Shown here piece by piece: positions 1 through 24,275 of a DNA stretch of 64,000 bases. How positions within the stretch are numbered: the stretch's first letter is position 1; every line of letters begins with the position of its first letter. A program made the translations under genes and the position numbers. This DNA comes from Patescibacteria group bacterium. GTDB lineage: Bacteria; Patescibacteriota; Microgenomatia; UBA8517. Location of the stretch: contig JBBTZT010000005.1 of the NCBI GenBank assembly GCA_038061225.1, forward strand, positions 19,646-83,645, written 5' to 3'. The notes below the pieces were generated by a model. It had not been told where the DNA came from. It worked only from the letters and a program-made list of their open reading frames with translations, and made no database searches.

Positions 1-501
1 ATCATATTTTTCACCTAATAGGATGTTTGTAACGAAACATCTAATAAACATTTCATGAGATACAACTACAATACTTTTATTTAAATAGTTAGTTGTTAAA
101 TTATTTTTGAAATTAAATGCACGTTCTGAGACCTCTCTTATCGATTCTTCATTATTTTCGAATTTCCAATCAAGATCACTGTAATTTTTGATATTCTCAT
201 CGTTATAACGTTTACTTATATCACTTTGTCTATCAACTCCATAAATTTCTGAATATTGCTCACGTTCCTGAATTCCGTCAATTTGCTCAAGTTTTTTATC
301 AAGTAATTCTGAAATTATTTTTGCTGTTTCTATTGCTCTTTTCCACTTACTGGATAGTATTAAATCCACTTTTTTGAACCGAGATAGAGTAGATAAGTTT
401 TCAGATTGTTTTACCCCTGTACCACTAAGTGGAGTATCAGGAGTCTGCCATTTTTCTCTTGAACCTGAACCTTCTGCATGTCTAACTAGAAATATAAACA
501 T
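1..501 (-). CDS. Histidine phosphatase superfamily protein (phosphoglycerate-mutase-like), 3' end beyond window
   Basis: Manual minus-strand translation from the ATG at 501..499: MFIFLVRHAEGSGSREKWQTPDTPLSGTGVKQSENLSTLSRFKKVDLILSSKWKRAIETAKII...VVVSHEMFIRC. It has the RHxE catalytic His motif, the SxxxRAxxTA motif and a VSHxxxIR motif. There is an in-frame TAG upstream of the ATG. The ORF runs off the window start, so it is absent from the ORF track. Confidence 0.6.
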   Translation of the reverse strand, partial: MFIFLVRHAEGSGSREKWQTPDTPLSGTGVKQSENLSTLSRFKKVDLILSSKWKRAIETAKIISELLDKKLEQIDGIQEREQYSEIYGVDRQSDISKRYNDENIKNYSDLDWKFENNEESIREVSERAFNFKNNLTTNYLNKSIVVVSHEMFIRCFVTNILLGEKYD

Positions 502-525
502 ATTTAGAAGTATATCATCCTATTT

Positions 526-1302
526 TCATTTTGTACCAACTGCCACCACACCAACGACAGATTCATCAAGACCATCAATATCAAGCAGTTTGTTAATTCC
601 TTTGTCGTTAAATCCACCAATTGAGCAAACCCCAAGACCCAAACCAGTTCCCATTAAATATAGATTTTGAGCCATGTGTCCATATTCTGTCAAAATATGT
701 CTATAGCCTCTGTCCTTATATTTAACTTCAGTTCTGTCAAATACAGCTGTAATAATAAATAGCAATGCTGACTTTTTAATCCAAAGTTGATCAAATTGAC
801 TTATAACTTCTTCTTTTGAAACATCATCCAAGACACATTCTAGAGAATGAGTTTTAACGTGATAATGATATATACCCTTTTTTATTTTCTCTACATTGAA
901 AACAATTGGATATACTTCTAATGGATATCTCGCTCCGCCTGATGGATAATTTCTTTTTTCACCACTTTTACTGGAGTCTCTTATTCCAGCAGAATAATAA
1001 ATAAGATCAGAAAATTTATTAAGATTTATTCTATTACTAGCAAAGTTTCTGAATGATTCTCTTTCCAAAATTGTTTTTTCAAGATCTATTTTAATTGCTG
1101 TTGGGGTAGGTAGAATCAATTGATCAAACCTAGGATATGCTTTGTGATACACTTTTTTCCATTCTGATGGCCATGACTCTCGAGGAGTTTTCTTAAACGC
1201 TTTAAAATCATCAATATTTGTAGATATATGAAATTTTCGTGAATTAGATAGTCCTTCAACGCATTCAATTAAACTTTCAATTTTGTCATTTATTTTTGTC
1301 AT
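526..1302 (-). CDS. SagB-type dehydrogenase (nitroreductase superfamily, TOMM/LAP azoline oxidase-like)
   Basis: 258 aa. It has the YPSGGARYPLEVY hallmark of SagB/McbC-type dehydrogenases. It lies 3 nt downstream of the YcaO gene on the same strand. Confidence 0.75.
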   Translation of the reverse strand: MTKINDKIESLIECVEGLSNSRKFHISTNIDDFKAFKKTPRESWPSEWKKVYHKAYPRFDQLILPTPTAIKIDLEKTILERESFRNFASNRINLNKFSDLIYYSAGIRDSSKSGEKRNYPSGGARYPLEVYPIVFNVEKIKKGIYHYHVKTHSLECVLDDVSKEEVISQFDQLWIKKSALLFIITAVFDRTEVKYKDRGYRHILTEYGHMAQNLYLMGTGLGLGVCSIGGFNDKGINKLLDIDGLDESVVGVVAVGTK

Positions 1303-1305
1303 ATT

Positions 1306-2649
1306 TTATAAAAATGGATGAGGAAATTTATTTAAATTCAACTCTAATTTTCTTTTAAATCCAAGTTTTTCAGGAATACTATATAGCCTATCTCCACCTA
1401 ATAGTGGATATTTTTCATTAAGGTAAATCGGTTGCATTTTTGGAATAATTACTTTTACAATATGATAATTAAGTTTTTTAAATTTTTCTATAGTTATATC
1501 TTTATAATATAAGTCATATTTTTTATTTTTAAATATTTCAATTAACGTTTTTAGTTTTTCCCCTGATTTCATTAGATTACTAGAATAATTAATATCTTTT
1601 ATATTTGCATTTTCTATCCAAAAATTGATATTTTTAATTGCTTCTGTGCCATACCACAAGAAACCTCTTAGTTTGATATCTGAACTTTTTTGTAAATCCT
1701 GGATATTAACTTTCATTGGCTCATCTTCAAAACTTGATCTAAGCCATGATCGTGTATGAAGTGCTTCTTCAATAGATCCACTAATTGCTTTGATTATATC
1801 AAAATCGCATTTTAGTCCGACAGATACAGCCTTACCAATTCCAGAGCGATTTATTATAATTGATGCAATAGTTGGAATTTTAATGTCTGTTGTAATATCT
1901 AACACTACAACTTCAAATTTATACCTATCTAAAATCAATTGTAACTTTCTAATTTCAGGATTATCTATATTTCTAAGGTTAATTTTTGAAGGTGTAATTT
2001 TATTAAGATAAAAAATCATAAACGAATCACGTTCAACAACTTCACAAATTCCTCGAACTATAGCAGCTGAGATGTTTGCACCACCTGCCACTCCCGTACT
2101 GATAGCTGAATAAATAGATGGCTCATTCTTTAGATATGGATATGAAAGATATATAAATTGTGAAGGTATCAGATATTGTTTATCAACTAATAGAGAAATA
2201 CAATCGGTCCATCTAAAAACAGAATTATTGTCAATTCTGAATTTTTTAAATTCATCCTTCTTAAGTTGGTTTTTCGAAAAAGCTGATATTGATCTAGGAT
2301 CAATAAAATTACAATTCATATGATTAATTGATTTCGTAGTAAAAGTTGATTCTTTTTTAAAAAAGAAGTTACAATATCTTTCTGTAGATTCACACAAGGA
2401 TTTTAACAATGCCTCCTTTTGTGAATGAAGTGAAGCTCCCGAAGACTTTGAGTGAAAATGTCTACCATCATTTTTTAAAAATAAATCATTTAGATCAGCA
2501 GAATAATACCAAAATTTAGGTTCATCATAATATTGACGAACTCTTTTAATTTTTTTAATTAATCCGTAATCCTTATCGACAAGACAAGACAAAGACAATA
2601 AAGTCCTATCTATATCTTGCTCACTTTCGCTATATAGATTCTGTATCAC
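1306..2649 (-). CDS. YcaO-domain protein (ATP-dependent cyclodehydratase-type)
   Basis: 447 aa. It carries the YcaO ATP-binding motifs SGASLHSQKEALLKSLCESTERY and GVAGGANISAAIVRGICEVVERD. It starts 8 nt downstream of the precursor ORF. Confidence 0.85.
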   Translation of the reverse strand: MIQNLYSESEQDIDRTLLSLSCLVDKDYGLIKKIKRVRQYYDEPKFWYYSADLNDLFLKNDGRHFHSKSSGASLHSQKEALLKSLCESTERYCNFFFKKESTFTTKSINHMNCNFIDPRSISAFSKNQLKKDEFKKFRIDNNSVFRWTDCISLLVDKQYLIPSQFIYLSYPYLKNEPSIYSAISTGVAGGANISAAIVRGICEVVERDSFMIFYLNKITPSKINLRNIDNPEIRKLQLILDRYKFEVVVLDITTDIKIPTIASIIINRSGIGKAVSVGLKCDFDIIKAISGSIEEALHTRSWLRSSFEDEPMKVNIQDLQKSSDIKLRGFLWYGTEAIKNINFWIENANIKDINYSSNLMKSGEKLKTLIEIFKNKKYDLYYKDITIEKFKKLNYHIVKVIIPKMQPIYLNEKYPLLGGDRLYSIPEKLGFKRKLELNLNKFPHPFL

Positions 2650-2657
2650 TTTTTGTG

Positions 2658-2843
2658 TTATTCACCTGAACCACCTGAACCTTCACAACCGCAGCTTGCT
2701 GCACAATCAGACTCACAACCACAACTTTGTGCACAATCCGCTGTACATGCTGAATCACAGTCAGAAGTTTCCATTTTGATGCTTTTTGTTTCCATCATTG
2801 GCTTAGCGTCTCTCAAATCTCTATTTTTGTTTATTAATTTCAA
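2658..2843 (-). CDS. RiPP precursor peptide, Cys/Ser-rich core (LAP/TOMM-like)
   Basis: The 74-codon ORF in the track (2658..2882) begins at a TTG. The better start is the TTG at 2843..2841, which is preceded by a strong SD (AAGGAGGTGA, 8-nt spacer). The resulting 61-aa product is MKLINKNRDLRDAKPMMETKSIKMETSDCDSACTADCAQSCGCESDCAASCGCEGSGGSGE. It has nine Cys at regular xxxC spacing with adjacent Ser/Thr. It sits immediately upstream of YcaO. Confidence 0.6.
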   Translation of the reverse strand: MKLINKNRDLRDAKPMMETKSIKMETSDCDSACTADCAQSCGCESDCAASCGCEGSGGSGE

Positions 2844-2887
2844 TTTAATCACCTCCTTAGTAAATTCGTAAGAATAATACAAGCAGA

Positions 2888-2915
2888 ACTATATCAGAAA
2901 TGATCAAATAGTCAA
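2888..2915 (-). promoter_or_regulatory. Candidate sigma70-type promoter for the precursor-YcaO-SagB operon
   Basis: On the minus strand there is TTGACT (plus 2915..2910), a 16-nt spacer and TATAGT (plus 2893..2888). This lies ~45 nt upstream of the SD and TTG start. Confidence 0.4.
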
Positions 2916-2987: not shown

Positions 2988-3047
2988 TCAGAACTGACTC
3001 GTTAAATTGTAAATTGGCAGGATTATTGCAATGACTAAAAATCCAAC
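2988..3047. repeat. Direct repeat copy A: duplicate of the pilC 3' terminus (candidate attL/attR-type island boundary)
   Basis: It matches 7833..7892 over ~60 nt (30+14+8+5 identical, 3 mismatches). All 3 mismatches are synonymous in the pilC frame. The copy still encodes ...VGFLVIAIILPIYNLTSQF* preceded by a stop. Confidence 0.7.
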
Positions 3048-3066
3048 ACACTATCATGCAATTTGG

Positions 3067-4404
3067 CTATTTTATTTGTAAAGCTTCAATAAAATTCTTA
3101 TCAAATTTATCAAATCTCTCCGTTAGTATAGGATCTAGATAGAAAAATGGCTGGTGTGAGTAATTTGAATTAAAAATTTTTCCATAAACAGGTAGATAAC
3201 CCTTTGTCGTTAACATAATTCTAAATCCCACATTTATATCAAAGTTCTTACCGACATACCCGCTTCCGTGGAATGATGATAGTTTTGTAGATCTATTGAT
3301 AGGATATAAAGTTAAACGATCTATAATATTATGCATGTCGCATCTAATAGAATCTGGATATATATATTCTACTGGTTTAGTTAATCTTCCAGACACAATT
3401 TCAGAAATATAATTTATAGTAAAACTCCATGTATCATGGACGATCTTTTGCCTAAGTATATTAATTTTTTCACTAGAATTTTTAAAGTTGAATATATCTT
3501 CAAAAACATGGAGAGTTAAATTATCTTTATCTTTTGAAGATTTAATTTCATGTACATAAATGCAATAAATTAAAGACATATAGAGGGCAATAAATTTATT
3601 TGCTAATTCTTTATCTTTAGCTGAACTCAAAATCTTCGAAATGTTTAAGAGAGGATCTTTAAGATTGATATACTTACCAAACATCTTTGTATAATTTGCC
3701 CTTGTTTTTAAAAAGATTTTTCTTTTTTCAAATTTAATTTCTTCTGGAAGAAATTTGTCTAAAGTCTTAACATAATCTACAAGCTCGACATATCCTTCTA
3801 AATTTAAATGTTTGGAAAATAATAACAAAGTCGTTTGATATTTATTAATTATTTCATCAGGAAAATTTAAAATCTGTTTAAAACGATACCCATCCATTAA
3901 AACAATAAATTTAGCTCCAACTGGATAAATATATTTTACAGCCAAACATATTTCCTTTAATCTTGCCAAGGAAGCCAAATCTGCTAGGTCTGGTAACAAA
4001 TCTGCACTCTTTAATAAATTTGGTATCTTGCAAGGAAATAAAGAGATAGTGAGTCGAATTGGTAAATTTTCTTTTATTCTATCAGAAACTTTTTGGTACA
4101 AAATATCAAAACCACTACTTTCTCTAGTACCACCCCTATATCTTCTTGCCATAAGTACTTCTACAACCATCCGATTGAGATCAGTTTTCTTACCATTCCT
4201 AAATTTCTTTTTAACTCTCTCTGCTATTTTAGACGCGTTTTTCTCTATCAATTGATTTATTTTTTTTGAAAGTAGCAGAAATAATTCATCATTCATTGTA
4301 AAATTAGTGTTTTTTCTTGATACAAATTTACTTGTTTTAAGATTAATAGATCTTAATGACGAACAGCTGATTAAAATTTCATTTTTGCTAAAAATATTTT
4401 TCAT
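3067..4404 (-). CDS. Hypothetical protein, 445 aa (island cargo)
   Basis: The ORF is intact and overlaps the upstream gene's stop by 4 nt (ATGA). Motifs FPCKIPN ... YPVGAKFIVLMDGYRF weakly recall the Dit1/PvcA isonitrile-synthase family. This is from memory only and unverified. Confidence 0.35.
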   Translation of the reverse strand: MKNIFSKNEILISCSSLRSINLKTSKFVSRKNTNFTMNDELFLLLSKKINQLIEKNASKIAERVKKKFRNGKKTDLNRMVVEVLMARRYRGGTRESSGFDILYQKVSDRIKENLPIRLTISLFPCKIPNLLKSADLLPDLADLASLARLKEICLAVKYIYPVGAKFIVLMDGYRFKQILNFPDEIINKYQTTLLLFSKHLNLEGYVELVDYVKTLDKFLPEEIKFEKRKIFLKTRANYTKMFGKYINLKDPLLNISKILSSAKDKELANKFIALYMSLIYCIYVHEIKSSKDKDNLTLHVFEDIFNFKNSSEKINILRQKIVHDTWSFTINYISEIVSGRLTKPVEYIYPDSIRCDMHNIIDRLTLYPINRSTKLSSFHGSGYVGKNFDINVGFRIMLTTKGYLPVYGKIFNSNYSHQPFFYLDPILTERFDKFDKNFIEALQIK

Positions 4405-5630
4405 ATATTTTGTAAATCAATAATGTTTCCTGGCAACTCTTTATCTACAATTTTTTGAATTGTTTGCCAATAATCTTTTATTTCCGATAATTCCTTTTCT
4501 GTAGCTGGTGTTTTGTCACGTCCGAATACAATAGGTACGTCTTTATTACATAAAGTTTTGGATGAACAAGCGGTGGTGATGACTCTAGGGATAATATCCA
4601 ACCTAAATTCAGGAGATTCTTTTGAAAAGGAAAAGTTAAATGCTCCAGAGAAACCTTTTGATATCCAAATCTGGTTGGCTTTAGTTATTATTCCCTTTTC
4701 TCTTCCTGGAGCAGCTGCCACTAAATTATTTGCAAGATATTTAAGTAATACGACAGAATCTCTTGATATAAAGTTTTGTTTATTCAAATAGGTACTTAAT
4801 CTTTTAACACGATCTTTTCTTGCTCTTGGAATATATCTTTGAGTAGTAAAATCTAATGATTTATCGGTGAAGACTTCCTGAATTTTGTTATACTCGCATC
4901 TCATATTGGTATATAAATTTACTAATCCTGGGAATAAACTTTTAAAATTCTTGGTGTCTGAAAAATATATAGATGTAAAACCAAAGTTTTCTTCCAACCT
5001 ACTGAAACCTTGATTTGGAAATAAATTCTTTTTTTCCTTCAGAGATATTATAAAATCATGGAAGATTTTTGAAAATGGCTCGATAAGAGATAATCTATCA
5101 AACCAATTTAGTTCACTCCATGATATTGACGTTAGATTTTTATTCAACACAGAATCTTCAACTAAATAAATATGGGAGTGTAATCTTTTTAAAGTATGGT
5201 TTCCCAAAAGCGAAACATCTTCAGAATTGAAACCTAGTGTTATTTGGACGTTTTTATTCCCAAAATCTAAAAGTTTGTTCACCATAACTTGATTGACAAT
5301 AAGTAATTTCTCACCCTCAACTTCAGTAAGATCAGTGATCGAAGAAACATCTCTGTCTGGCTCGCCAATGAAAATGTTCACATCCCTCAAACCGAATGAA
5401 TAGCTTTTTGGTGTAATTAAGTAATCTAAGTGTGATCCTTCAAATTTAAGAGCAGCAAGAGGAAGAATTCTTTTTCTAAACTTCAACCAATCTACTGAGT
5501 TAGCTTCTGTATTATTCAACGGTGCCATAAAATATAAAGGTCGATGAATTTTTCCAACATTCATCGATTTTGCTTTTAACATTTGGTCAAAAATAGGGTT
5601 TTCTATCATGTTATTTAATAGTAAGAACAT
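4401..5630 (-). CDS. Hypothetical protein, 409 aa (island cargo)
   Basis: The ORF is intact with no recognisable catalytic motif. It is translationally coupled to its neighbours. Confidence 0.35.
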   Translation of the reverse strand: MFLLLNNMIENPIFDQMLKAKSMNVGKIHRPLYFMAPLNNTEANSVDWLKFRKRILPLAALKFEGSHLDYLITPKSYSFGLRDVNIFIGEPDRDVSSITDLTEVEGEKLLIVNQVMVNKLLDFGNKNVQITLGFNSEDVSLLGNHTLKRLHSHIYLVEDSVLNKNLTSISWSELNWFDRLSLIEPFSKIFHDFIISLKEKKNLFPNQGFSRLEENFGFTSIYFSDTKNFKSLFPGLVNLYTNMRCEYNKIQEVFTDKSLDFTTQRYIPRARKDRVKRLSTYLNKQNFISRDSVVLLKYLANNLVAAAPGREKGIITKANQIWISKGFSGAFNFSFSKESPEFRLDIIPRVITTACSSKTLCNKDVPIVFGRDKTPATEKELSEIKDYWQTIQKIVDKELPGNIIDLQNI

Positions 5631-6663
5631 CTAACTGGTCAAGACGCGTTTTTATTCTAGAGAATAAATATTTTATATATTTATTCTCATTAAAATTGGA
5701 ATCTGCAAATTTCCTTGATTCCAACTTTTGGGGTGTGAAACTCCAAAGAAGAATACCTATCCAATTCAATGCCTGTAGAGGAACAAAGATTTTAACTCTA
5801 TCTATAATATCTTTTGGTAACATTGACTCACTTCGATATTTATTTATAAAATATCTTATATTTTCATTAGATAGACCCCAAGATCCTTCATGTGTTACAA
5901 AATTTGCAACTATTTTAGAAGGGTCGTCCCATCCAAAATACTCAAAATCTATGAAACATACATCTCCATTATCTTTAAAAATTGCATTATGAGGTCCAAA
6001 ATCTACTGGGCTTAATCTCATTAAAGAGTCATCTATTTCTTCGGAGAAACTATCACCGGACATTCTTTTTAGATTTTTTATTTGACCGTTAATTCGTTCC
6101 AAAACTTTGGTTCCCTTTGAAAAATTAACAATATCTGGACTTGTCTTAGGTGTCTTAATTAATTCTTCAAATTTTTTGATCTTTTCCAAGATTACATTTG
6201 AAAACTGTTCAGCTGATTGTGTAGAAAGAACAGCATTTGGAAAATTCTGTTTTGTTTCAATAGGTTTAATGTTTTGTATTTTAAAAATAAATGACAGGAA
6301 TCTGTCTAAATCCTTTTTAACTAATTCTCTTCCAGATTTCACTATACCTGTTTCAAAAGAGTAAACCGCATAGCCTTTATCCTCATCTTTAAAAAAAGGT
6401 ACGGGTAATCTTGTTTCTCCAAGGCTTCTTAAATATTTAAAAGCTGAAAATTCTCTATTCAATCTATTTCTATCATCTTTAAAATATCGTTTAAATAAGT
6501 AACTTTTTCCGTTCTCCGAACTTACTTTAAAAATTTTATTATTAAAACCACCATCCAAGCTTTCAAACTCATCAATCGATATTCCAAAATGTTTTGCTAT
6601 TACACCTTTTATAATAGAAGAATCTTCTTGTGTTTTGTTTTCTTTCATTTTTGTTTTACTCAT
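5611..6663 (-). CDS. Aminoglycoside-phosphotransferase/choline-kinase-like kinase (APH fold)
   Basis: 350 aa. It has the Brenner-type catalytic/Mg-binding region HNAIFKDNGDVCFIDFEYFGWDDP (HxN...IDFE) typical of the APH/ChoK/CotS family. Confidence 0.6.
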   Translation of the reverse strand: MSKTKMKENKTQEDSSIIKGVIAKHFGISIDEFESLDGGFNNKIFKVSSENGKSYLFKRYFKDDRNRLNREFSAFKYLRSLGETRLPVPFFKDEDKGYAVYSFETGIVKSGRELVKKDLDRFLSFIFKIQNIKPIETKQNFPNAVLSTQSAEQFSNVILEKIKKFEELIKTPKTSPDIVNFSKGTKVLERINGQIKNLKRMSGDSFSEEIDDSLMRLSPVDFGPHNAIFKDNGDVCFIDFEYFGWDDPSKIVANFVTHEGSWGLSNENIRYFINKYRSESMLPKDIIDRVKIFVPLQALNWIGILLWSFTPQKLESRKFADSNFNENKYIKYLFSRIKTRLDQLDVLTIK

Positions 6664-7354
6664 TTATCAAGTTAATATCGTCAATTGTGCACTGGTCTAC
6701 CTTCCATTTTGTAACATCTGATAAATTTTTTTTACCTTCAAACCCTTTAAAGATATGGGTATGTACTAATAGTTCGGATTTGTGTAAATTGTTTACCAAA
6801 TCAGCATTACCAAATCTATTTAAAACTGAAAAGGGTACGTGCGCAACATTTGCTTGTGACATTTTAGTCCAACCGATAATTTTGTTCGTAACTAACCCTT
6901 GAGACATCCAGTCCTGAAAAATAAAATTATGCATAATCAATCCTAATTTTAATTTAGGAAAAATATCCCTGATATATGGTAAAAGTGGAACTTCACTTGT
7001 AGTTAATTCTATATCTGCTTTAGAATATTGTTTTAGTTGATCCTTGAGAATCGGAAGTATCTCAGTATTCATAGCTTTAATCTCTATTTCAATCCTTCCT
7101 TTGTTGTGAATTTTGCTAAGAATTTCGTCTAGTCCTGAATAATCAGACTCTATCGAAGAGATATAATTGTGTACTATCATAATTTTTCCATTTCGAAGTT
7201 GAATATCCATTTCAATTCCATCAGCCCCATTCAAAAAGGCTGAATTGAAAGCGTCAAGAGTATTTTCAAGAAAATGAACAGTATCCCCTCGATGGGCAAT
7301 AAGAAGAGGTTTATACCTAAAATTTTCAAACTTTTCTTTTGGAGCTAGCGACAT
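6656..7354 (-). CDS. Glycerophosphodiester phosphodiesterase family protein
   Basis: It has LIAHRGDT...ENTLDAFNSAFLNGADGIEMDIQL, the GDPD/UgpQ-type active-site region. Confidence 0.65.
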   Translation of the reverse strand: MSLAPKEKFENFRYKPLLIAHRGDTVHFLENTLDAFNSAFLNGADGIEMDIQLRNGKIMIVHNYISSIESDYSGLDEILSKIHNKGRIEIEIKAMNTEILPILKDQLKQYSKADIELTTSEVPLLPYIRDIFPKLKLGLIMHNFIFQDWMSQGLVTNKIIGWTKMSQANVAHVPFSVLNRFGNADLVNNLHKSELLVHTHIFKGFEGKKNLSDVTKWKVDQCTIDDINLINE

Positions 7355-7411
7355 TTACCTATAGTATCACTATTAAGACAAAATGGCAAAAAAACAGCTT
7401 CTTTAATATTT

Positions 7412-7831
7412 TTAGATAATTAAGCTTTTGTATTTAGATAGTCTAAGTTTTACAGCACTGGTAAGCTTTAGTTTTGTTAGTTCTTTCAAATTGAAGAATT
7501 TTATTGCTTGACCTTCGTCCTGTCCTAACTTAAATAATTTTACTTCATCATTGTCGACCGTTGACAAAAATGTATATGAATATTTTCCGTCATCCTTTTT
7601 AAATTCTCCAATATATTGAAGCTCTTTGGGTACATGTGTAATTTCTTCTTTAAGTTCTCTTTTTATTGCTTGGAGTGGAGTTTCATTTTCATTCATCCGC
7701 CCTCCTGGGAGATGCCAATAATTGGGATATGGAATATCTTTTTTGTCGTCTCTATGAAATAGAAGCAACTTATTTTTATAAGTTATTAAAGCGAAAACTG
7801 AATTACTTGCAATCCAATGGTTAATATTCAT
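7412..7831 (-). CDS. NUDIX hydrolase
   Basis: It has the Nudix box GGRMNENETPLQAIKRELKEEI (GX5EX7REUXEEXGU). Confidence 0.7.
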   Translation of the reverse strand: MNINHWIASNSVFALITYKNKLLLFHRDDKKDIPYPNYWHLPGGRMNENETPLQAIKRELKEEITHVPKELQYIGEFKKDDGKYSYTFLSTVDNDEVKLFKLGQDEGQAIKFFNLKELTKLKLTSAVKLRLSKYKSLII

Positions 7832-7832
7832 A

Positions 7833-7892
7833 TCAGAACTGACTCGTTAAATTGTAAATTGGAAGGATTATTGCAATAACTAAAAAGCCAAC
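7833..7892. repeat. Direct repeat copy B = genuine 3' end of pilC
   Basis: It is identical to 2988..3047 apart from 3 synonymous mismatches. It encodes the PilC C-terminus ...VGFLVIAIILPIYNLTSQF*. Confidence 0.7.
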
Positions 7893-9038
7893 CCCTAACC
7901 CCAAAAGAACCATCACAATAGGCTCAATTGCTGCAGTTAGCGTTTTAACTTTTTGATCTGATTCAACTTCAAAAACATGACTTACTTTAGTTAAAACTTC
8001 TTCCATTTTTCCAGTTTCTTCACCAACAGCAATCATTTGAGAAAGAATAAATGGAAAAGCATCGGGGTGTTTTGCAAAAGCATAGGAGACAGGAAAACCT
8101 TTTTCAACTTGCAGAGAAACATCTTTTAAAGCATTACTTATCACAGCATTACTCATAACCTCTGATGTTATATTTAAACTTTCTAAAATTGATACTCCTG
8201 CACCAGACATTAGAGATAGTGTACTAGTTAGCTCAGTTAATAAAACTTGTTTTTGCAGTGGTCCAATAATTGGAATTTTAAATTGAAGTTCGTCTGTTTT
8301 TAATTTTCCTGCAATAGTTTTTCTATATGCTTTAAAACCATAAAATCCACCCACAAAAAAAGCAACTGTTACAGGCCAAAATTTAATAACAGCATCAGAT
8401 ATTCCCATTAATATTCTAGTTGGTAGTGGAAGTTCTGCATTAAATTCTGAATAAAGTGAGGTAAGCCTTGGAACAACAAAAATCATCATTAAAAAGGCAA
8501 CTATTACCATGCCGGTAACAATTATCATAGGATAAATCATGGCTCCTTTAACTTTTCCTTTAAATTCTTGTTGCTTTTCCATATCATCAGCAAGACGAAC
8601 TAAAACAGTATCCAAAACTCCACCAACTTCACCTGACTTGACTAAGGCAATGTAAGTTGGAGAAAAAACATTAGGATGTTTGATAAAAGCTTTTGAAACG
8701 GATTCTCCTCCTTCAATGTCAGCTAATATTTGGGAAACAACCTTACCCATTGACCCATTTGCTTGAGATTTTAAAATAATAAGTGACTCAGTAATTGGTA
8801 AACCAGCATTTACCATTGTTGCAAATTGACGGGTAAAAGTAACAACATCTGACGGGGTAATTCTATTTTTTAAATTTTTAATAAAAACAATTGGATTTTC
8901 AAAAACTTGTTTTATAGATAGTACTAAAAGTCCTTTTCCATGAACTAACCTTGCAGCATTAATTTCATCCACAGCTTCAACTTCTCCAGTTACCAATTTT
9001 CCAACTTTATTCTTTGCTTTGTAGTTGAATCGTTTCAT
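7833..9038 (-). CDS. pilC: Type IV pilus assembly platform protein PilC (GspF family)
   Basis: 401 aa with duplicated GspF domains and 3 TM segments. It follows pilT and ends with TGA. Confidence 0.85.
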   Translation of the reverse strand: MKRFNYKAKNKVGKLVTGEVEAVDEINAARLVHGKGLLVLSIKQVFENPIVFIKNLKNRITPSDVVTFTRQFATMVNAGLPITESLIILKSQANGSMGKVVSQILADIEGGESVSKAFIKHPNVFSPTYIALVKSGEVGGVLDTVLVRLADDMEKQQEFKGKVKGAMIYPMIIVTGMVIVAFLMMIFVVPRLTSLYSEFNAELPLPTRILMGISDAVIKFWPVTVAFFVGGFYGFKAYRKTIAGKLKTDELQFKIPIIGPLQKQVLLTELTSTLSLMSGAGVSILESLNITSEVMSNAVISNALKDVSLQVEKGFPVSYAFAKHPDAFPFILSQMIAVGEETGKMEEVLTKVSHVFEVESDQKVKTLTAAIEPIVMVLLGLGVGFLVIAIILPIYNLTSQF

Positions 9039-9042
9039 TTTC

Positions 9043-10104
9043 TTAGAGACTACCTTTGATTAATCTATTTAATTCATCAGGCCGTACTGTCCATTCTTGT
9101 GCAGTCTCAATAGTAATTTTATTTGTTTTAACAAGACTAGAAAGCGAATGTTCAAGCGTTGACATACCAGCCTCTAGCGAAGTTTGAATAATTGAATCAA
9201 TTTGGTGCGATTTACCTTCTCTAATTGCAGTTTTTATGGCTGTTGTTCCAAGCATTACTTCATGAGCAACGAGGCGTCCACCAGCGCTTGCTTTTATTAA
9301 TCTTTGGGAAAATACAGCCTCTAAGATCGATGATAGTTGTAATCTTATCTGGTTCTGTTGGTTTTCAGGAAAAACATCAACAATTCTATCAACTGTTTGG
9401 GAAGCAGAATTAGTATGCAGTGTCCCAAAAACTAAATGCCCTGTTTCTGCAATTGTCATTGCCGCTGAGATAGTCTCAAAGTCTCTCATTTCACCAACCA
9501 AGACAACATCAGGATCTTCGCGTAGGACTGATCTTAAAGCAACCTGCCATGAATGGGTATCAGATCTCATCTCACGCTGGGAAATGATTGATTTAATTGG
9601 TCTGAATACAAATTCTATTGGGTCTTCAATGGTCACAATATGAGATGCTCTGTTTTTATTTATTTCATTTATTATGGCAGCAAGTGTGGTTGATTTTCCA
9701 TGTCCAGTTGGCCCTGTAACAAGCACCAATCCTTGCCTTAAATCAGTAAAACTTTTGGCTATAGGAGGTAAACCTAACGAATCAATTTCTGGAATTTCCA
9801 AAGGAATCCTTCTAAATGAAGCCGCCATTGATCCTTTTTGGGTATAGGCATTCACTCTAAATCTTGCCTTTTCGCTAAATGATAATGAAAAATCAATTTC
9901 TTTATTTACGCTAAATCTTTCAAGTTGGTCTTTTGTTAATATTTGTTTTAATCCTTCATTTATAATATCGGGGGTTAAAATAGCATTGTCTGCAATTGAT
10001 TTTAAGTCGCCATCTAATCTAACCATAGGAGGAACACCCGCCACCAAATGCAAGTCGGATGCTTTTAAATCAATTGTTTGTTCCAGTAAGTTTTTTGCGT
10101 CCAT
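9043..10104 (-). CDS. pilT: Twitching motility ATPase PilT
   Basis: 353 aa. It has the Walker A motif GPTGHGKSTT and is PilT/PilU-like throughout. Confidence 0.85.
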   Translation of the reverse strand: MDAKNLLEQTIDLKASDLHLVAGVPPMVRLDGDLKSIADNAILTPDIINEGLKQILTKDQLERFSVNKEIDFSLSFSEKARFRVNAYTQKGSMAASFRRIPLEIPEIDSLGLPPIAKSFTDLRQGLVLVTGPTGHGKSTTLAAIINEINKNRASHIVTIEDPIEFVFRPIKSIISQREMRSDTHSWQVALRSVLREDPDVVLVGEMRDFETISAAMTIAETGHLVFGTLHTNSASQTVDRIVDVFPENQQNQIRLQLSSILEAVFSQRLIKASAGGRLVAHEVMLGTTAIKTAIREGKSHQIDSIIQTSLEAGMSTLEHSLSSLVKTNKITIETAQEWTVRPDELNRLIKGSL

Positions 10105-10105
10105 C

Positions 10106-11821
10106 TTATTCTTGTGCTACACGCAATATTTCTTCAATCGTTGTTTCACCAGCTAAAACTTTCAAATAACCGTCCTGTTTTAATGTTATCATACCTTCTT
10201 CCTTTGCTTTAGTTTCAATTTCTGATGCAGGAGATCTTTCAAGAATCATTTTACCAATAGAATCGCTAACTGGCAAAACTTCAAAAATACCAATTCTCCC
10301 ATAATAGCCTGAATTGCCACAAGCCTGACAACCTTTACCTCTTGAGATTTTTGATAATGCGTCTTTTGGCCACAGCGGCCCGAGGACGCTTTTCATTTCT
10401 TCAATGACTTTTGGATCAAGTTCATAATTTTCTCTACAATCTTCATGAATTTTTCTGGCAACTCTTTGAGCCATAATTGCAGTCATTGAAGAAGTCAAAA
10501 GATAAGGCTCGGCTCCCATGTCAAGCATACGAGGCAAAGCTCCGGCAGCATTATTGGTATGAAGTGTAGAAAAAACCAAATGCCCGGTTAAAGATGCTTG
10601 TATGGCAAGATCTGCAGTTTCTTGATCTCTAATTTCTCCCACCAAGATAATATTTGGATCCTGTCTTAAAAATGATTTAAGTCCTGAAGCAAAAGTAAGA
10701 CCTACTGCGGGATTAATTTGAACTTGATTAACTCCAACCATTTTATATTCAATAGGATCTTCCAAAGTAACAATATTTACCTTAGGAGTATTTATTTTAC
10801 TTATGATTGAATAAAGAGTTGTAGTTTTACCTGACCCTGTTGGGCCACAAATCATAATAATTCCATGAGGCCGGAGTATTGCATCTTGTAAATTTTTTAA
10901 AGCTTTTCCACGAAGACCAAGAGTAGGAAGATCGGGGACACCGCCTGTTTTTTTAAGAAGACGCATAACAATCTTTTCACCCCACGTTGTAGGAAGTGAA
11001 GAAACACGAAGGTCAGTGTCTTCACCTGCCGCTTTAAAATTAAATCTACCATCTTGAGGAATTCTTTTTTCATCAATTTTCATTCCCGAGAGAATCTTTA
11101 TTCTAGAAGTTAATGATTCATGCAATTCTTTTGGAATAGTTAATTTTTCAACTAAAATTCCATCTATTCTATATCTAACCCTGGTGGACCTTTCTTCTGG
11201 TTCAATATGAATGTCACTAGACCTTGATTTTACTGCAAATTCTAAAATATGAGATACTATTTCTGAAATTTTTTCTTCTTTAATAAAACCAATTTTTAAA
11301 TTATCTTTGATATTTGATTTTTTCTCAGGTGCAACATCTTTTAGGGCTTCTGTAACTTCTTGAGAAAGTGATGTCTGATATCTTGTTGTTATAACATCCC
11401 CCAATTTATCTTCTTCAACAGCTACAGGTTTAACTCTAAGGCCTGTTTTTCTTTCTACAAACTCAATAGCAGTTAAATCAAGCGGGTCTGCCATGGCAAG
11501 GGTAATTGTTTTTGCAAGTTTATCTATTGCAAGTGGAAAAATATTAAACTTAGAAGAAATGTCTTGCGCTAAAACAGACATGGCTTCAGGAGATGATGGG
11601 GAAGTAGCGAGGTCTGCATAAGGAATGTTATAAAGTGTTGCTTTGGCGCGAACGAGATCTGAATTTGAGACTAAATTTTGTTTTTTAATAATTTCTTCTT
11701 GAGTGGTGCCATACTGCACCTCAGCCATTTTAATCTGTTTGGCACGTTCTTCAGTTAAAGCACCCATCGAAATTAAAATATCTGAAAGACTATTTCCTGT
11801 AGCAATGGCAGTATTGGGCAT
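10106..11821 (-). CDS. pilB: Type IV pilus assembly ATPase PilB (GspE family)
   Basis: 571 aa. It has a GspE N-domain plus Walker A GPTGSGKTTTLYS and a tetracysteine motif. Confidence 0.85.
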   Translation of the reverse strand: MPNTAIATGNSLSDILISMGALTEERAKQIKMAEVQYGTTQEEIIKKQNLVSNSDLVRAKATLYNIPYADLATSPSSPEAMSVLAQDISSKFNIFPLAIDKLAKTITLAMADPLDLTAIEFVERKTGLRVKPVAVEEDKLGDVITTRYQTSLSQEVTEALKDVAPEKKSNIKDNLKIGFIKEEKISEIVSHILEFAVKSRSSDIHIEPEERSTRVRYRIDGILVEKLTIPKELHESLTSRIKILSGMKIDEKRIPQDGRFNFKAAGEDTDLRVSSLPTTWGEKIVMRLLKKTGGVPDLPTLGLRGKALKNLQDAILRPHGIIMICGPTGSGKTTTLYSIISKINTPKVNIVTLEDPIEYKMVGVNQVQINPAVGLTFASGLKSFLRQDPNIILVGEIRDQETADLAIQASLTGHLVFSTLHTNNAAGALPRMLDMGAEPYLLTSSMTAIMAQRVARKIHEDCRENYELDPKVIEEMKSVLGPLWPKDALSKISRGKGCQACGNSGYYGRIGIFEVLPVSDSIGKMILERSPASEIETKAKEEGMITLKQDGYLKVLAGETTIEEILRVAQE

Positions 11822-11854
11822 GCATTAATGATATCATATGTTTATATAAATATG

Positions 11855-12391
11855 CATGCGTTTTTGTTAATTAATACAAATCCAAAAGAATTTGCCACAA
11901 AACAAAAGGCAAAACAGATTCCGTTTAGATTACAAAAAATTGATGATGTTAGAGAACTTAAAAAATTTGTTAAGTTTAGCTTCGCTCTAAAAACTGCAAT
12001 TATCATTGAAGATATTGATAAAGCTACAGTAGAAACACAAAATGCTTTTCTTAAAAATTTAGAAGAACCAAACAAGAATTTGATTTATGTATTAACAGTT
12101 AGCAATTTGGAGAATGTATTACCAACAATAGTATCTCGATGCCAAGTAATTAAGATCCAAGATCTAAGATATAAGATGTATGACAAAAACGCAAACTACA
12201 AGGATGCGTTGAATATTAAAGATAGGGGAGAGGCGATTAAATTTGTTGAAAATCTAATATATATAGATCATGAAAAAAATATTTTTCAAAATCAAGAAAA
12301 TTATTTACAGTCTCTGAAAAATTTAAAAGCAAATGGTAATGTCTCGTTGCAGTTACTAAATTTAGTTGTTAAAATGAACAGCCAGAGATAA
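11855..12391 (+). CDS. holB: DNA polymerase III delta-prime-like clamp-loader subunit (short, degenerate)
   Basis: It has TQNAFLKNLEEP (like ALLKTLEEP) and TIVSRCQ (like TIxSRCQ). The start is probably the ATG at 11855 rather than 11828. Confidence 0.5.
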   Translation, partial: HAFLLINTNPKEFATKQKAKQIPFRLQKIDDVRELKKFVKFSFALKTAIIIEDIDKATVETQNAFLKNLEEPNKNLIYVLTVSNLENVLPTIVSRCQVIKIQDLRYKMYDKNANYKDALNIKDRGEAIKFVENLIYIDHEKNIFQNQENYLQSLKNLKANGNVSLQLLNLVVKMNSQR

Positions 12392-23318: not shown

Positions 23319-24275
23319 TTATTTTCCTCTTCCATGAAAGATTTCGTGTATATCATGGAGTTGCTTGTTTGTAACATGGGTATAAATTTGTGTAGTTGAT
23401 ATATTCTTATGCCCCAACATCTCTTGAATACTTCTTAAATCAGCACCTGCATTAAGCAAATCTGAGGCGAAACTGTGACGGATTGTGTGAGGAGTAGCTT
23501 CAATTGGAAGTTTGACTTTCCTAACATATTTTTTTAATAATCTTTCTATCGATCGGGGAGTGAGACGCATTTTTTCATCCTCCACCGTTGGATCAATTTT
23601 ACCTTTGTGACGTATAAAGAGTGGTTTAAAATGATCTTTTCTTTCATTTAGATATCTTTTCAAATAATCAGATGACCTAGAGGATAGAAAAACCACTCTT
23701 GCTCTTCCACCTTTACCTGTTATACCAAATTCTCGTCTATCAAAATCAATTTTTTCAATATTAAGGCTTGTCAGCTCAGATACACGAAGACCTGTGGAAA
23801 ACAAAACTTCTAAGATTGCTTTATCACGAAGACTCATGAGTCTGAGTGACAAGCTTTGCTTATCACTACCTATTGTTGGAGCATTCAATAGTCTATCTAC
23901 TTGTTCACCATTTAAAAACTTGATTTGTCTGTCAGGAATTTTGGGTAGTTCAATTTTATCAGGTGCCATAACTTGATAATCATTTCTAATTAACCATTTT
24001 AAAAAAGATCGTAGCGCAATTGCGTGATATCCTTGAGTTTTTTTGGAAAGTCCAAGTTTAGCTAGATATGCCCTAAAGTCATGAACAATATCTTGGTTTA
24101 TAGACTTTATATCTGTGTGTTTGTGATTTGTAATTAACCACTCAAGAAGTCGATTTAAGTAATGTCTATAATTTCGAATTGTAAGAGGGGAGCATCCTTT
24201 TTCAACAGACAAATAATCTAAAAATTCATCAGTTTTTTTTGATATATCACTATTTTTTCCTTGAGCAGAATTCAT
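23319..24275 (-). CDS. xerC: Tyrosine recombinase XerC/XerD family
   Basis: 318 aa with an N-terminal core-binding domain and the C-terminal catalytic motif RHSFASDLLNAGADLRSIQEMLGHKNISTTQIYTH. Confidence 0.85.
   Translation of the reverse strand: MNSAQGKNSDISKKTDEFLDYLSVEKGCSPLTIRNYRHYLNRLLEWLITNHKHTDIKSINQDIVHDFRAYLAKLGLSKKTQGYHAIALRSFLKWLIRNDYQVMAPDKIELPKIPDRQIKFLNGEQVDRLLNAPTIGSDKQSLSLRLMSLRDKAILEVLFSTGLRVSELTSLNIEKIDFDRREFGITGKGGRARVVFLSSRSSDYLKRYLNERKDHFKPLFIRHKGKIDPTVEDEKMRLTPRSIERLLKKYVRKVKLPIEATPHTIRHSFASDLLNAGADLRSIQEMLGHKNISTTQIYTHVTNKQLHDIHEIFHGRGK

What the first reader, a model, noticed from the sequence alone, without database searches (positions are those of the whole stretch)
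2988..7892. 60-bp duplication of the pilC 3' end brackets a 4.8-kb integrase-less gene block: genomic island integrated at the 3' terminus of pilC
The sequence tcagaactgactcgttaaattgtaaattgg[a/c]aggattattgcaat[a/g]actaaaaa[g/t]ccaac occurs twice. One copy is the true pilC stop region (7833..7892). The other is 4.8 kb away at 2988..3047. The distal copy still encodes the last 19 PilC residues plus stop. All three nucleotide differences are synonymous. That is the signature of an attP-borne copy of a target-gene 3' end, where site-specific integration regenerates the gene, rather than a random duplication. The bracketed block (NUDIX, GDPD, APH-like kinase and two unknown proteins, all co-directional with pilC) has no integrase. 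The RiPP operon lies immediately beyond the distal copy. This suggests either tandem islands at one att site with the recombinase outside the window, or an integrase-deficient satellite element. Transcription from pilB-pilT-pilC could read through into the cargo.
Basis: seen in the sequence. Interest (0 to 1): 0.8.

Follow-up and report, generated by a model that had tools for sequence, protein, structure and literature searches.

The report
Nested gene insertions behind pilC
A real 60-base repeat marks where a five-gene metabolic operon was inserted right after the pilus gene pilC in an uncultured groundwater bacterium. It is the youngest of several insertions stacked at that spot, and nothing found here points to an integrase-driven island.

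Summary
The 60-nt direct repeat (2988-3047 / 7833-7892, 57/60) has sharp borders, ends exactly at the pilC stop codon, and brackets NUDIX-GDPD-kinase-unknown-PvcA-like genes. The host is a Woesebacteria (CPR) genome from Hainich groundwater.

About 100 related loci show the normal order pilC-pilin-pilD. Relatives at about 90% nt identity have pilC-pilin (L029, L091, L183) or pilC-RiPP block-pilC'(232 nt)-pilin (L003, L171). So the block is an insertion, and the RiPP block next to it is an older insertion at the same junction. The window also holds a third 24-nt pilC-tail copy (2941-2964).

The att-site reading is not supported:
- Repeat lengths differ between insertions (19, 50, 60 and 232 nt).
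- The five-gene operon sits in unrelated contexts elsewhere, without repeats.
- Its right end keeps 19 nt of a former neighbour gene.
- No block or relative encodes a recombinase.
- The same tail-duplication signature occurs at gyrB and at another gene.

The pilC tail carries the -35 box of the pilin promoter, which explains why tail copies persist. The three synonymous differences are confined to the repeat between sibling strains, which fits gene conversion.

Most likely mechanism (inferred): recombinase-independent illegitimate insertion with local duplication.

The parts
7833..9038 (-). pilC (T2SSF platform protein), last gene of pilB-pilT-pilC (pilT 9043-10104, pilB 10106-11821)
   Evidence: ORF list; Pfam T2SSF E=6e-64; orthologues in more than 150 loci
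7833..7892 (-). Proximal 60-nt repeat copy: the last 19 codons plus TGA of pilC
   Evidence: in sibling strain L178 it is identical to the distal copy
7412..7831 (-). NUDIX hydrolase, first gene of the inserted operon. Its ATG lies 1 nt after the pilC stop. Its N-terminus is not homologous to the HAD-NUDIX fusion of L087.
6656..7354 (-). GDPD-family phosphodiesterase
5611..6663 (-). APH/choline-kinase-like phosphotransferase
4401..5630 (-). 409-aa protein of unknown family. It stays linked to the operon in L087, L088 and L089.
   Evidence: no hit in Pfam, NCBIfam, PHROGs or PDB sequences; synteny; AF2 model unusable
3067..4404 (-). DIT1/PvcA-like (isonitrile-synthase family) protein, last gene of the inserted operon
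   Evidence: Pfam PF05141 E=1e-18; only 17 homologues found
3048..3066 (-). 19-nt remnant homologous to the 3' end of the convergent HD-domain gene that follows the operon in L087 (15/19); L089, whose HD neighbour is likewise convergent, shows looser similarity. This is the right breakpoint of the transferred fragment.
   Evidence: alignment; HD domain
2988..3047 (-). Distal 60-nt pilC-tail copy. It is non-coding (in-frame TAG at 3051-3053, no start codon).
   Evidence: 60/60 identical to L173 and to the pilC end of L178-L182
2941..2964 (-). Third, older pilC-tail copy (YNLTSQF* with TTGACA), 24/24 identical to the pilC tail allele of L029. A 23-nt spacer (2965-2987) separates it from the 60-mer.
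2888..2915 (-). Promoter-like site of the RiPP operon (TTGACT-16-TATAGT with TG)
2658..2882 (-). Cys-rich RiPP precursor ORF. The likely start is the TTG at 2843, behind GGAGGTG.
1306..2649 (-). YcaO cyclodehydratase
   Evidence: Pfam E=7e-55
526..1302 (-). Nitroreductase-family (dehydrogenase-type) protein of the RiPP module
1..501 (-). 5' part of a His_Phos_1 phosphatase gene, cut by the window edge. In relatives it is followed by a convergent kinase, a 232-nt pilC copy, pilin and pilD.

Best explanation
The 60-nt repeat is the scar of the youngest of a nested series of insertions at the pilC-pilin junction of a Woesebacteria (Patescibacteria/CPR) chromosome.

The ancestral order is pilB-pilT-pilC-pilin-pilD. 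The last codons of pilC (AAC TTG ACA AGT...) double as the -35 box of the pilin promoter. An insertion here is therefore tolerated only if a complete pilC tail stays on the left and a tail copy stays on the right. Such tail copies are common in the clade.

In the window lineage a RiPP module (precursor, YcaO, dehydrogenase, phosphatase, kinase) came first, bracketed by pilC and a 232-nt pilC copy. Later a five-gene NUDIX-GDPD-kinase-unknown-PvcA-like operon landed 1 nt after the pilC stop, with a 60-nt duplication. That operon is a chromosomal fragment from another CPR genome with arbitrary breakpoints.

Inferred mechanism: no element-encoded recombinase was involved. Foreign DNA was joined by illegitimate recombination (microhomology or template-switch type), and the re-entry point lay 60 nt upstream of the exit point. 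The insertion then probably spread among strains by homologous recombination. The repeat copies keep interacting by gene conversion. The cargo is probably transcribed by read-through from pilBTC.

Shown: that it is an insertion, the nesting, the lack of a recombinase, the arbitrary cargo ends, the overlap between the pilC tail and a promoter-like element, and the concerted evolution of the copies. Inferred: the joining mechanism, the strain-to-strain spread and the read-through.
For: - Sites lacking the block and the canonical order: L029, L091 and L183 have pilC-pilin-pilD. About 100 loci have pilin 17-170 nt after pilC.
- Nesting: L003 and L171 have pilC-RiPP-pilC'(232+12 nt, 229/232)-pilin. 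The sibling contig L173 links the kinase to a 232-nt copy. The window holds a third tail copy.
- Cargo found elsewhere: L087, L088 and L089 carry the operon without repeats. A 19-nt HD-gene remnant marks the right breakpoint. The NUDIX gene has a new N-terminus.
- RiPP module elsewhere: it is bracketed by a 94-nt copy of another gene's tail in L177, and has no repeat in L174-L176.
- Same signature at other genes: gyrB in L006 (48-55 nt) and gene X in L093 (46 nt). At pilC, L115 has 19 nt and L136 has 50 nt.
- No recombinase in the blocks, no relatives in viral contigs, and no RAYT or REP elements in the window.
- Promoter overlap: 46 of 96 distinct pilC tails use TTG-ACA against 5.7% expected from codon usage in the same genes. 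A -10-like hexamer follows 17-18 nt later. When the tail lacks TTGACA, a separate TTGACA or a second tail copy follows the stop.
- Gene conversion: pilC and pilC'232 differ by 3-4 nt within a genome but by 20-25 nt between lineages, although dS is about 0.4-0.8. Comparing L178 with the window, there are 0 differences in 2172 nt of block and 3 differences confined to the repeat.
Against: - The true donor of the five-gene fragment is unknown, so microhomology at the two junctions cannot be verified.
- The left junctions lie 0-12 nt after a stop codon in every case. That is tidier than random joining predicts, although the permissive interval is only about 17-45 nt.
- The RiPP module has nearly the same ends (within about 10 nt) at two different loci, which hints at a discrete mobile unit.
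- Contig L173 reads kinase-pilC'232-precursor, as an excised circle or a tandem copy would.
- My recollection that double illegitimate recombination can produce target duplications (Hulter & Wackernagel 2008, cited in PMC8116780) could not be checked, because the paper is not held.
Confidence: 0.5

Rival explanations
1. Campbell-type insertion-duplication. A circular DNA molecule carrying the cargo plus a 60-nt pilC tail, derived from a conspecific that already had the block behind pilC, integrated by a single RecA-dependent crossover in the pilC tail. This duplicated exactly the homologous stretch. The junction between the PvcA end and the pilC' start would be the circularisation joint.
For: - Both borders of the distal junction are arbitrary: 19 nt into a neighbour gene, and 60 nt before the pilC stop.
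- The proximal junction (TGA-T-ATG) looks like a native operon joint.
- The copies share lineage-specific synonymous codons, so any donor tail came from the same species.
- The block is 100% identical over 2172 nt between strains whose pilC differs by 3%, which suggests recent strain-to-strain transfer.
- The repeats clearly recombine.
Against: - It needs an earlier, unexplained event that first placed the block behind pilC.
- DNA taken up by competence is linear and single-stranded (general knowledge), so the source of a circle is unclear.
- 60 nt is close to the lower limit for RecA-mediated crossover (general knowledge).
- No circular junction is reliably observed. L173 is ambiguous.
Confidence: 0.22
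2. Site-specific integration. The pilC 3' end is an attB. The blocks are integrase-less, CIME-like elements accreted in tandem and mobilised by a tyrosine or serine recombinase encoded elsewhere, such as the Xer-type gene at 23319-24275 or a gene outside the window.
For: - Direct repeats of a target gene's 3' end, sites lacking the block in relatives, and tandem arrangement.
- All four junction types appear among contigs: pilC-pilin, pilC-precursor, kinase-pilC'-pilin and kinase-pilC'-precursor.
- The RiPP module has similar ends at two loci.
- A tyrosine recombinase is present in the window.
Against: - Repeat lengths and borders differ between insertions at the same site (19, 50, 60 and 232+12 nt), and no common core is conserved across lineages. 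The window's tail even lacks the ACTTGACAAGT palindrome.
- The same signature occurs at other genes with unrelated sequences.
- The cargo operon occurs elsewhere without att-like repeats and has an arbitrary right breakpoint.
- The window recombinase scores as XerC/XerD/XerA, passing only the XerA cut-off, and is not adjacent.
- The 'attP' contig L173 (coverage 3) runs through repeats inferred to be identical in that strain, and four high-coverage contigs break exactly at the repeat end, so it may be a graph chimera.
Confidence: 0.13
3. HUH (Y1, RAYT/IS200-like) transposase acting in trans. REP-associated transposases of this clade target hairpin-prone gene ends such as the pilC-tail palindrome ACTTGACAAGT, and they insert or capture DNA there.
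For: - L115 has a RAYT-like gene flanked by REP hairpins (ACTTGTAAGG...CCTTACAAGT) inserted exactly after the pilC stop, with a 19-nt distal tail copy.
- L006 has the same kind of module after gyrB, with a 48-55-nt copy of the gyrB tail.
- RAYT homologues are common in the fetched relatives.
Against: - There is no RAYT gene and no REP-like hairpin family in the 64-kb window.
- The window's pilC tail does not contain the palindrome.
- IS200/IS605-type transposition is not known to duplicate targets (general knowledge).
- The five-gene block has no hairpin ends.
Confidence: 0.05
4. The block is ancestral and relatives lost it by recombination between the repeats (deletion rather than insertion). 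Alternatively, the repeat is an assembly artefact.
For: Recombination between direct repeats does delete intervening DNA, and the copies demonstrably recombine. Several assemblies break at the repeat.
Against: - About 100 loci across the clade have pilC-pilin directly.
- The operon's homologues sit in other contexts with a different neighbour whose 19-nt remnant is retained in the window.
- Both junctions are recovered in independent assemblies, and in the window strain the copies are distinguishable by 3 SNPs.
Confidence: 0.03

Closest known systems
Genomic islands and cis-mobilisable elements (CIMEs) integrated in the 3' end of tRNA or protein genes, accreted in tandem (as described for streptococcal ICE/CIME systems; from my own knowledge)
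   Same: Direct repeats derived from the 3' end of the target gene. The target gene is regenerated. Relatives have unoccupied sites. Tandem stacking occurs at one site. The cargo blocks lack an integrase.
   Different: Insertions share no constant att core or repeat length. No integrase-bearing partner element was seen in more than 180 loci. The cargo has arbitrary breakpoints and occurs elsewhere without repeats. The same signature appears at unrelated genes.
[quoted passage not shown]
   Same: No recombinase is involved. The donor breakpoints are arbitrary. The host encodes a type IV pilus machinery of the kind used for DNA uptake. The cargo is a chromosomal fragment of another genome.
   Different: Microhomology at the junctions could not be verified. 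Whether such events generate 19-232-nt target duplications rests on my memory of a paper I could not read. The left junctions lie regularly 0-12 nt after stop codons.
Insertion-duplication (Campbell-type single crossover), as used for insertion-duplication mutagenesis in transformable bacteria (from my own knowledge)
   Same: The product is exactly target gene - insert - copy of the homologous target stretch - downstream DNA. The length of the duplication is set by the homology carried.
   Different: There is no known natural source for the required circle, and no vector backbone is present.
REPtrons / IS200-IS605 Y1 HUH elements
   Same: In relatives L115 and L006, RAYT-like genes with flanking hairpins sit immediately after the stop codons of pilC and gyrB, with gene-tail copies on the far side.
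   Different: The window has no RAYT gene and no hairpin family. The family is not known to duplicate its targets.
Resolution of overlapping functions by local duplication (a gene end overlapping the promoter of the next gene)
   Same: The pilC tail contains the -35 box of the pilin promoter. Many lineages carry a second short tail copy that holds the TTGACA box while the coding tail has drifted.
   Different: This explains why distal copies are retained. It does not explain how 4-5 kb of foreign DNA was joined in.

Membership tests
Site-specific integrative island / CIME | Recombinase (integrase) gene within the element | tested here: not met
   Four of the five block proteins match enzyme families. 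The fifth has no match to any integrase or transposase model (Pfam, NCBIfam, PHROGs, PDB). The RiPP-module proteins are likewise non-recombinases.
Site-specific integrative island / CIME | Direct repeats of the target 3' end at both borders, with the target gene regenerated | tested here: met
   60-nt repeat, 57/60, ending at the pilC stop. pilC is intact at 401 aa.
Site-specific integrative island / CIME | Unoccupied target site in related genomes | tested here: met
   L003 and L171 lack the five-gene block. L029, L091 and L183 lack both blocks.
Site-specific integrative island / CIME | A constant att core and constant repeat borders in independent insertions at the same site | tested here: not met
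   Repeats of 19 nt (L115), 50 nt (L136), 60 nt (window) and 232+12 nt (L003, L171) have different left and right borders.
Site-specific integrative island / CIME | The element has the same defined ends wherever it occurs | tested here: not met
   In L087, L088 and L089 the five-gene operon has no flanking repeats and continues into a HAD-NUDIX fusion (L087) and a convergent HD gene (L087 and L089). The window keeps a 19-nt remnant of that neighbour. For the RiPP module the ends coincide within about 10 nt at two loci, which is partial support.
Site-specific integrative island / CIME | Excised circular form (attP junction) | tested here: inconclusive
   L173 reads kinase-pilC'232-precursor. 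It has coverage 3 and passes through repeats inferred to be identical in that strain. Four high-coverage contigs stop exactly at the repeat end.
Site-specific integrative island / CIME | A cognate recombinase in trans that acts on the repeats | not testable with these tools
   The only recombinase seen is a XerC/XerD/XerA-type gene at 23319-24275. Its activity on pilC tails is unknown.
Transposon with target-site duplication | Transposase, terminal inverted repeats, and a short duplication of fixed length | tested here: not met
   There is no transposase and no terminal inverted repeats at the block ends. The duplications are long and variable (19-232 nt).
IS200/IS605 or REPtron (Y1 HUH) | Y1 transposase gene and flanking hairpin (REP) sequences | tested here: not met
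   There is no tblastn hit in the window, no hairpin family, and the ACTTG...CAAGT motif is not enriched. These features are met only in relatives L115 and L006.
Illegitimate (double illegitimate / homology-facilitated) integration | Arbitrary donor breakpoints and no element backbone | tested here: met
   The right breakpoint lies 19 nt into the neighbour gene's 3' end. The left breakpoint lies near the start of the NUDIX domain of what is a fusion gene in L087.
Illegitimate (double illegitimate / homology-facilitated) integration | Microhomology between donor and recipient at the junctions | tested here: inconclusive
   The closest donor-like sequence, L087 (about 80% nt), shows T(G/T)TGGAT at the right junction against GTTGGAT in pilC. 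The true donor is unknown.
Campbell-type insertion-duplication | Collinear duplication of exactly the homologous stretch, with the insert between the copies | tested here: inconclusive
   The geometry fits, but it fits other models equally well. No circle or donor was identified.

The most novel reading that the evidence does not exclude
Woesebacteria, and perhaps CPR bacteria more widely, may possess an undescribed way of acquiring genes. Promoter-bearing gene modules without any recombinase (RiPP cluster, NUDIX-PvcA operon, RAYT module, a MerR-like pair) would be inserted immediately after the stop codons of conserved genes (pilC, gyrB, gene X), generating long, variable duplications of the gene's 3' end (19-232 nt). 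The agent would be either a trans-acting enzyme not yet recognised or a competence-linked replication/repair route. The duplicated tails would then serve as recombination handles for strain-to-strain spread, excision and homogenisation.
Probability: 0.15. Interest if true: 0.75.

Novelty: new variant of a known kind. Interest (0 to 1): 0.45.

Why it matters
CPR bacteria have tiny genomes and few recognisable mobile elements, and how they gain accessory genes is poorly understood. This locus gives a dated, stepwise record of two biosynthetic modules being stacked behind the pilus operon without any integrase. The intermediate states are preserved in relatives (unoccupied, one insert, two inserts). 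The same tail-duplication scar appears at other genes. The locus also shows that the end of pilC doubles as the pilin promoter. That explains why the junction keeps collecting tail copies, and it warns annotators that 3'-end repeats do not by themselves indicate att sites. For assemblers, these repeats explain recurrent contig breaks at pilC.

Tried and rejected
1. L173 as proof of an excised circle. Rejected as ambiguous. Its coverage is 3. Its path runs through a 172-nt plus 60-nt repeat system whose copies are inferred to be identical in the H51/H52 strain. L179-L182 (coverage 55-76) all stop exactly at the pilC TGA.

2. Viral or plasmid vehicle. Scans of IMG/VR with the pilC tail, the PvcA-like protein and YcaO found nothing.

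3. RAYT/REP involvement in the window. There is no RAYT gene, no hairpin family, and ACTTG...CAAGT occurs at chance frequency.

4. Composition as evidence of foreign origin. The signal is weak. The block has GC 29.6% against 32.3 +/- 1.2%, and a tetranucleotide distance of 0.198 against a maximum of 0.190 for other windows. pilBTC itself scores 0.179.

5. Fold of the 409-aa unknown. A single-sequence AlphaFold model gave pLDDT 35 and is unusable, so no fold search was run.

6. The three synonymous differences as an attP signature. Rejected. Relatives vary at these sites (L183 has GGA/GTT/CTC). The sibling strain has the distal-type allele in its pilC. Over 3.7 kb, the repeat is the one local cluster of differences between the two strains. 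This fits gene conversion among tail copies.

7. 'Replacement inside a tandem RiPP array', meaning the 60-mer is a truncated 232-nt copy. Not excluded, but it needs more steps and rests on L173.

8. Seeing the DNA left of the window. All contigs carrying the window's nitroreductase stop at the same point, His_Phos codon 209. The continuation is known only from sibling contig L173.

9. Reading Hulter & Wackernagel 2008. The paper is not held.

Full report
**1. Observation**

The repeat is real. Copies at 2988-3047 and 7833-7892 match at 57/60 positions and lie 4845 nt apart. A search with the first 30 nt, allowing 3 mismatches, finds only these two sites, against 0 expected in shuffles. The flanks do not align, so the borders are sharp. 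It is the only long, well-conserved direct repeat in the 64-kb window.

All genes in this region lie on the minus strand:

| Feature | Coordinates |
|---|---|
| pilB | 10106-11821 |
| pilT | 9043-10104 |
| pilC | 7833-9038 |
| NUDIX | 7412-7831 |
| GDPD | 6656-7354 |
| APH-like kinase | 5611-6663 |
| 409-aa unknown | 4401-5630 |
| DIT1/PvcA-like | 3067-4404 |
| distal pilC copy | 2988-3047 |
| Cys-rich RiPP precursor | 2658-2882 |
| YcaO | 1306-2649 |
| nitroreductase-type | 526-1302 |
| truncated His_Phos gene | 1-501 |

The pilC TGA (7833-7835) is separated from the NUDIX ATG (7829-7831) by one base.

The distal copy encodes the last 19 PilC residues plus a stop. It is preceded by an in-frame TAG (3051-3053) and has no start codon, so it is a remnant and not a gene.

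**2. Source and relatives**

Identical pilC proteins are found on contigs from the Hainich groundwater wells. Relatives are Woesebacteria/Microgenomates MAGs.

In about 100 related loci the order is pilC, then the major pilin 17-170 nt later, then pilD. The closest relatives are not very close: dS is about 0.4-0.8 and nt identity about 90%. Together they show three states:

- L029, L091 and L183: pilC-pilin-pilD.
- L003 and L171: pilC, RiPP precursor, YcaO, dehydrogenase, His_Phos, a convergent kinase, then a 232-nt copy of the pilC 3' end plus 12 nt, then pilin and pilD.
- The window: the five-gene block in addition, lying between pilC and the RiPP module.

Only the window's own strains (L001, L002) and an H52 sibling (L178) carry the five-gene block. 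The block is therefore an insertion. The RiPP module next to it is an older insertion at the same junction.

The window also contains a third tail copy, TACAACTTGACAAGCCAATTTTAA, at 2941-2964. It has the same allele as the pilC tail of L029. The continuation to the left of the window is not assembled for this strain, because four contigs stop at His_Phos codon 209. Sibling contig L173, about 98% identical, links His_Phos and the kinase to a 232-nt pilC copy.

**3. Evidence against a site-specific island**

- **Repeat lengths vary.** Independent insertions at the same junction have repeats of 19 nt (L115), 50 nt (L136), 60 nt (window) and 232+12 nt (L003), with different borders on both sides.
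- **The cargo is found elsewhere.** The five-gene operon exists in L087, L088 and L089 at 84% (L087/L088) and 72% (L089) PvcA identity. There it sits in unrelated neighbourhoods, without pilC fragments or flanking repeats. In L087 and L089 it is followed by a convergent HD-domain gene. The window retains 19 nt (3048-3066) homologous to the 3' end of that gene in L087 (15/19), lying between the PvcA stop and the distal copy. On the other side, L087's NUDIX is the C-terminal half of a HAD-NUDIX fusion, while the window's NUDIX begins with about 10 unrelated codons. These are arbitrary fragment ends, not element termini.
- **The RiPP module is also found elsewhere.** It occurs in L174-L176 without repeats. 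It also occurs in L177, which belongs to the same MAG as the unoccupied pilC site L029. In L177 the module is bracketed by a 94-nt direct repeat (94% identical) of the 3' end of a different gene, X.
- **The same scar occurs at other genes.** A self-comparison of all 184 sequences held (183 fetched loci plus the window, 2.4 Mb) found it after gyrB in L006. There a 48-55-nt tail copy brackets a RAYT-like gene with REP hairpins. It also found the scar at gene X in L093, where a 46-nt copy brackets a MerR-like gene pair.
- **No recombinase was found.** No block encodes a recognisable recombinase. The 409-aa unknown stays linked to the operon in contexts that lack repeats. No relatives occur in viral contigs. 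The window does encode a tyrosine recombinase (23319-24275), but it scores as XerC/XerD/XerA and lies 14 kb away.

**4. Why pilC tails accumulate here**

In 46 of 96 distinct Woesebacteria pilC genes, the Leu-Thr codons of the conserved ...PIYNLTSQF* tail are TTG-ACA. Codon usage in the same genes predicts 5.7%. (The binomial p-value is inflated because the sequences are related.) A -10-like hexamer (GATACT, AATACT or TATTGT) follows 17-18 nt later, just after the stop, and the pilin RBS comes next.

Where the coding tail has other codons, a separate CTTGACA box or a complete second tail copy sits behind the stop. Examples are L183, L098, L110, L092, L149, L150 and L154.

The pilC tail is therefore also the -35 region of a promoter-like element just upstream of pilin. 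This rests on sequence conservation and has not been tested experimentally. Any insertion at this junction must keep a whole tail on the pilC side and a tail copy on the pilin side. This accounts for the retention of distal copies next to pilin. It does not explain the window's 60-mer, which abuts the RiPP promoter, so the joining process itself must generate duplications.

**5. The copies recombine**

pilC and pilC'232 differ by 3-4 nt within a genome but by 20-25 nt between the window and L003 lineages. Yet core genes and RiPP genes have diverged to a similar extent, and the kinase-side junction is the same in both lineages. This indicates one old insertion followed by concerted evolution.

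Sibling strain L178 has no differences from the window in 2172 nt of NUDIX-GDPD-APH. Its pilC shows 37 differences: 34 in the 5' half and 3 at exactly the three variable repeat positions. At those positions L178's pilC carries the distal-type bases. Differences confined to the repeat, inside otherwise near-identical DNA, fit short conversion tracts among the tail copies. They are not an attP signature.

If the copies are identical in that strain, as L178 and L173 together suggest, this also explains why four high-coverage contigs end precisely at the pilC TGA. It also explains why L173, which reads like a circle or tandem junction, cannot be trusted.

**6. Mechanism**

Shown:
- Insertion of foreign chromosomal fragments.
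- Nesting of the insertions.
- Target-tail duplications of variable length.
- No recombinase in cis.
- Later gene conversion between the copies.

Inferred best guess (about 0.4-0.5): recombinase-independent illegitimate joining, such as microhomology-mediated template switching or double illegitimate recombination of DNA taken up. The type IV pilus machinery of the host is the kind used for DNA uptake. The re-entry point would lie upstream of the exit point, and selection would keep only events that leave pilC intact.

Rivals:
- Campbell-type single crossover of a circle carrying a tail copy (about 0.2).
- A trans-acting site-specific recombinase (about 0.13).
- A RAYT-type HUH enzyme (about 0.05).
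- Deletion in relatives, or an assembly artefact (about 0.03).

Three points remain that the illegitimate-joining model does not readily explain. The left junctions lie 0-12 nt after stop codons in every case. The RiPP module has near-identical ends at two loci. The L173 junction reads like a circle or tandem copy.

**7. Expression**

No terminator-like site lies between pilC and NUDIX, and no strong promoter is predicted at the block start. Read-through and translational coupling from pilBTC are plausible but untested. The RiPP operon keeps its own TTGACT-16-TATAGT promoter (2888-2915).

**8. Verdict**

'Insertion at the pilC terminus' and 'tandem islands' are supported. 'att site / attP-borne copy / satellite element' is not supported.

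This is a new variant of a known kind: a genomic insertion flanked by target 3'-end repeats, but without the hallmarks of site-specific integration. It has an unexpected functional twist, because the gene tail doubles as the next gene's promoter, and the same scar recurs at other genes in the clade. Interest is moderate.

Noticed in passing
window 7833-7856 and pilC-pilin junctions of L004-L170: The conserved PilC C-terminus (NLTSQF*) is encoded so that the Leu-Thr codons spell TTGACA in 46 of 96 distinct genes, against 5.7% expected. A -10-like hexamer lies 17-18 nt downstream, just before the pilin RBS. This looks like a pilin promoter embedded in the pilC tail. Lineages without it carry a separate TTGACA box or a second tail copy.
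   Followed up: yes
window 3067-4404 (and L087, L089, L090): This is a DIT1/PvcA-family (isonitrile-synthase-like) protein in a CPR genome. It belongs to a rare family: only 17 homologues were found among 5.8 billion clusters. It is always linked to GDPD, an APH-like kinase, a 402-409-aa unknown and a NUDIX gene. This may be an undescribed small-molecule pathway.
   Followed up: partly
window 1-2915; L003 11278-15293; L174-L177: The RiPP module is a conserved five-gene unit: a Cys-rich precursor (...CDSACTADCAQSCGCESDCAASCGCEGSGGSGE), YcaO, a nitroreductase-type dehydrogenase, a His_Phos_1 phosphatase and a convergent APH/CotS-like kinase. It is found at three or more different chromosomal sites in Woesebacteria.
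   Followed up: partly
L177 4665-4758 and 8810-8903: A 94-nt direct repeat (94% identical) of the 3' end of an unannotated gene X brackets the RiPP module. This MAG's pilC-pilin junction carries no insertion. Homologues of gene X lie at the far end of the pilin gene cluster in many relatives.
   Followed up: partly
L006 3066-3120 and 4361-4415; L115 1249-1272 and 2103-2175: RAYT/IS200-like Y1 transposase genes flanked by perfect REP-type hairpins sit directly after the stop codons of gyrB (L006) and pilC (L115). Each has a copy of the gene's tail (48-55 nt and 19 nt) on the far side. RAYT downstream of gyrB is syntenic in several relatives (L009, L010, L093, L097, L100, L101).
   Followed up: partly
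L093 17409-17454 and 18505-18550: A 46-nt repeat derived from the tail of gene X brackets about 1.05 kb. That stretch encodes a MerR-like HTH protein (240 aa) and a 107-aa protein, possibly a small defence or regulatory pair.
   Followed up: no
window 23319-24275 (-): A single XerC/XerD/XerA-type tyrosine recombinase (Phage_integrase E=1e-43). It passes only the archaeal XerA NCBIfam cut-off. It is presumably the housekeeping dif recombinase.
   Followed up: partly
L179-L182 contig ends; L083-L086 contig ends: Four independent high-coverage assemblies end exactly at the pilC stop codon. Four others end at the same base, in His_Phos codon 209. The first break is explained by identical repeats or strain polymorphism. 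The second is unexplained.
   Followed up: partly
L172 698-3409: In one relative, a 903-aa MmeI-like type IIG restriction-modification gene follows the kinase of the RiPP module, where other genomes have the pilC copy. This may be yet another insertion at the junction.
   Followed up: no
L174 6699-6772 and 7955-8028: A 74-nt direct repeat (80% identical) resembles the 3' half of a tRNA. It brackets 1.2 kb with a P-II-like ORF and a 203-aa unknown, next to the RiPP module. This could be a small tRNA-associated insertion. No tRNA scan was run.
   Followed up: no
window ~11000-11900: Cumulative GC skew reaches its minimum between pilB (-) and holB-gyrB (+), where gene orientation also switches. 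The replication origin might be nearby.
   Followed up: no
L136 2138-2334: The 197-nt spacer between pilC and its 50-nt tail copy has no match in any fetched locus. It starts and ends with an 8-bp inverted repeat (GGCCGGGC/GCCCGGCC). The contig ends inside the second copy.
   Followed up: partly
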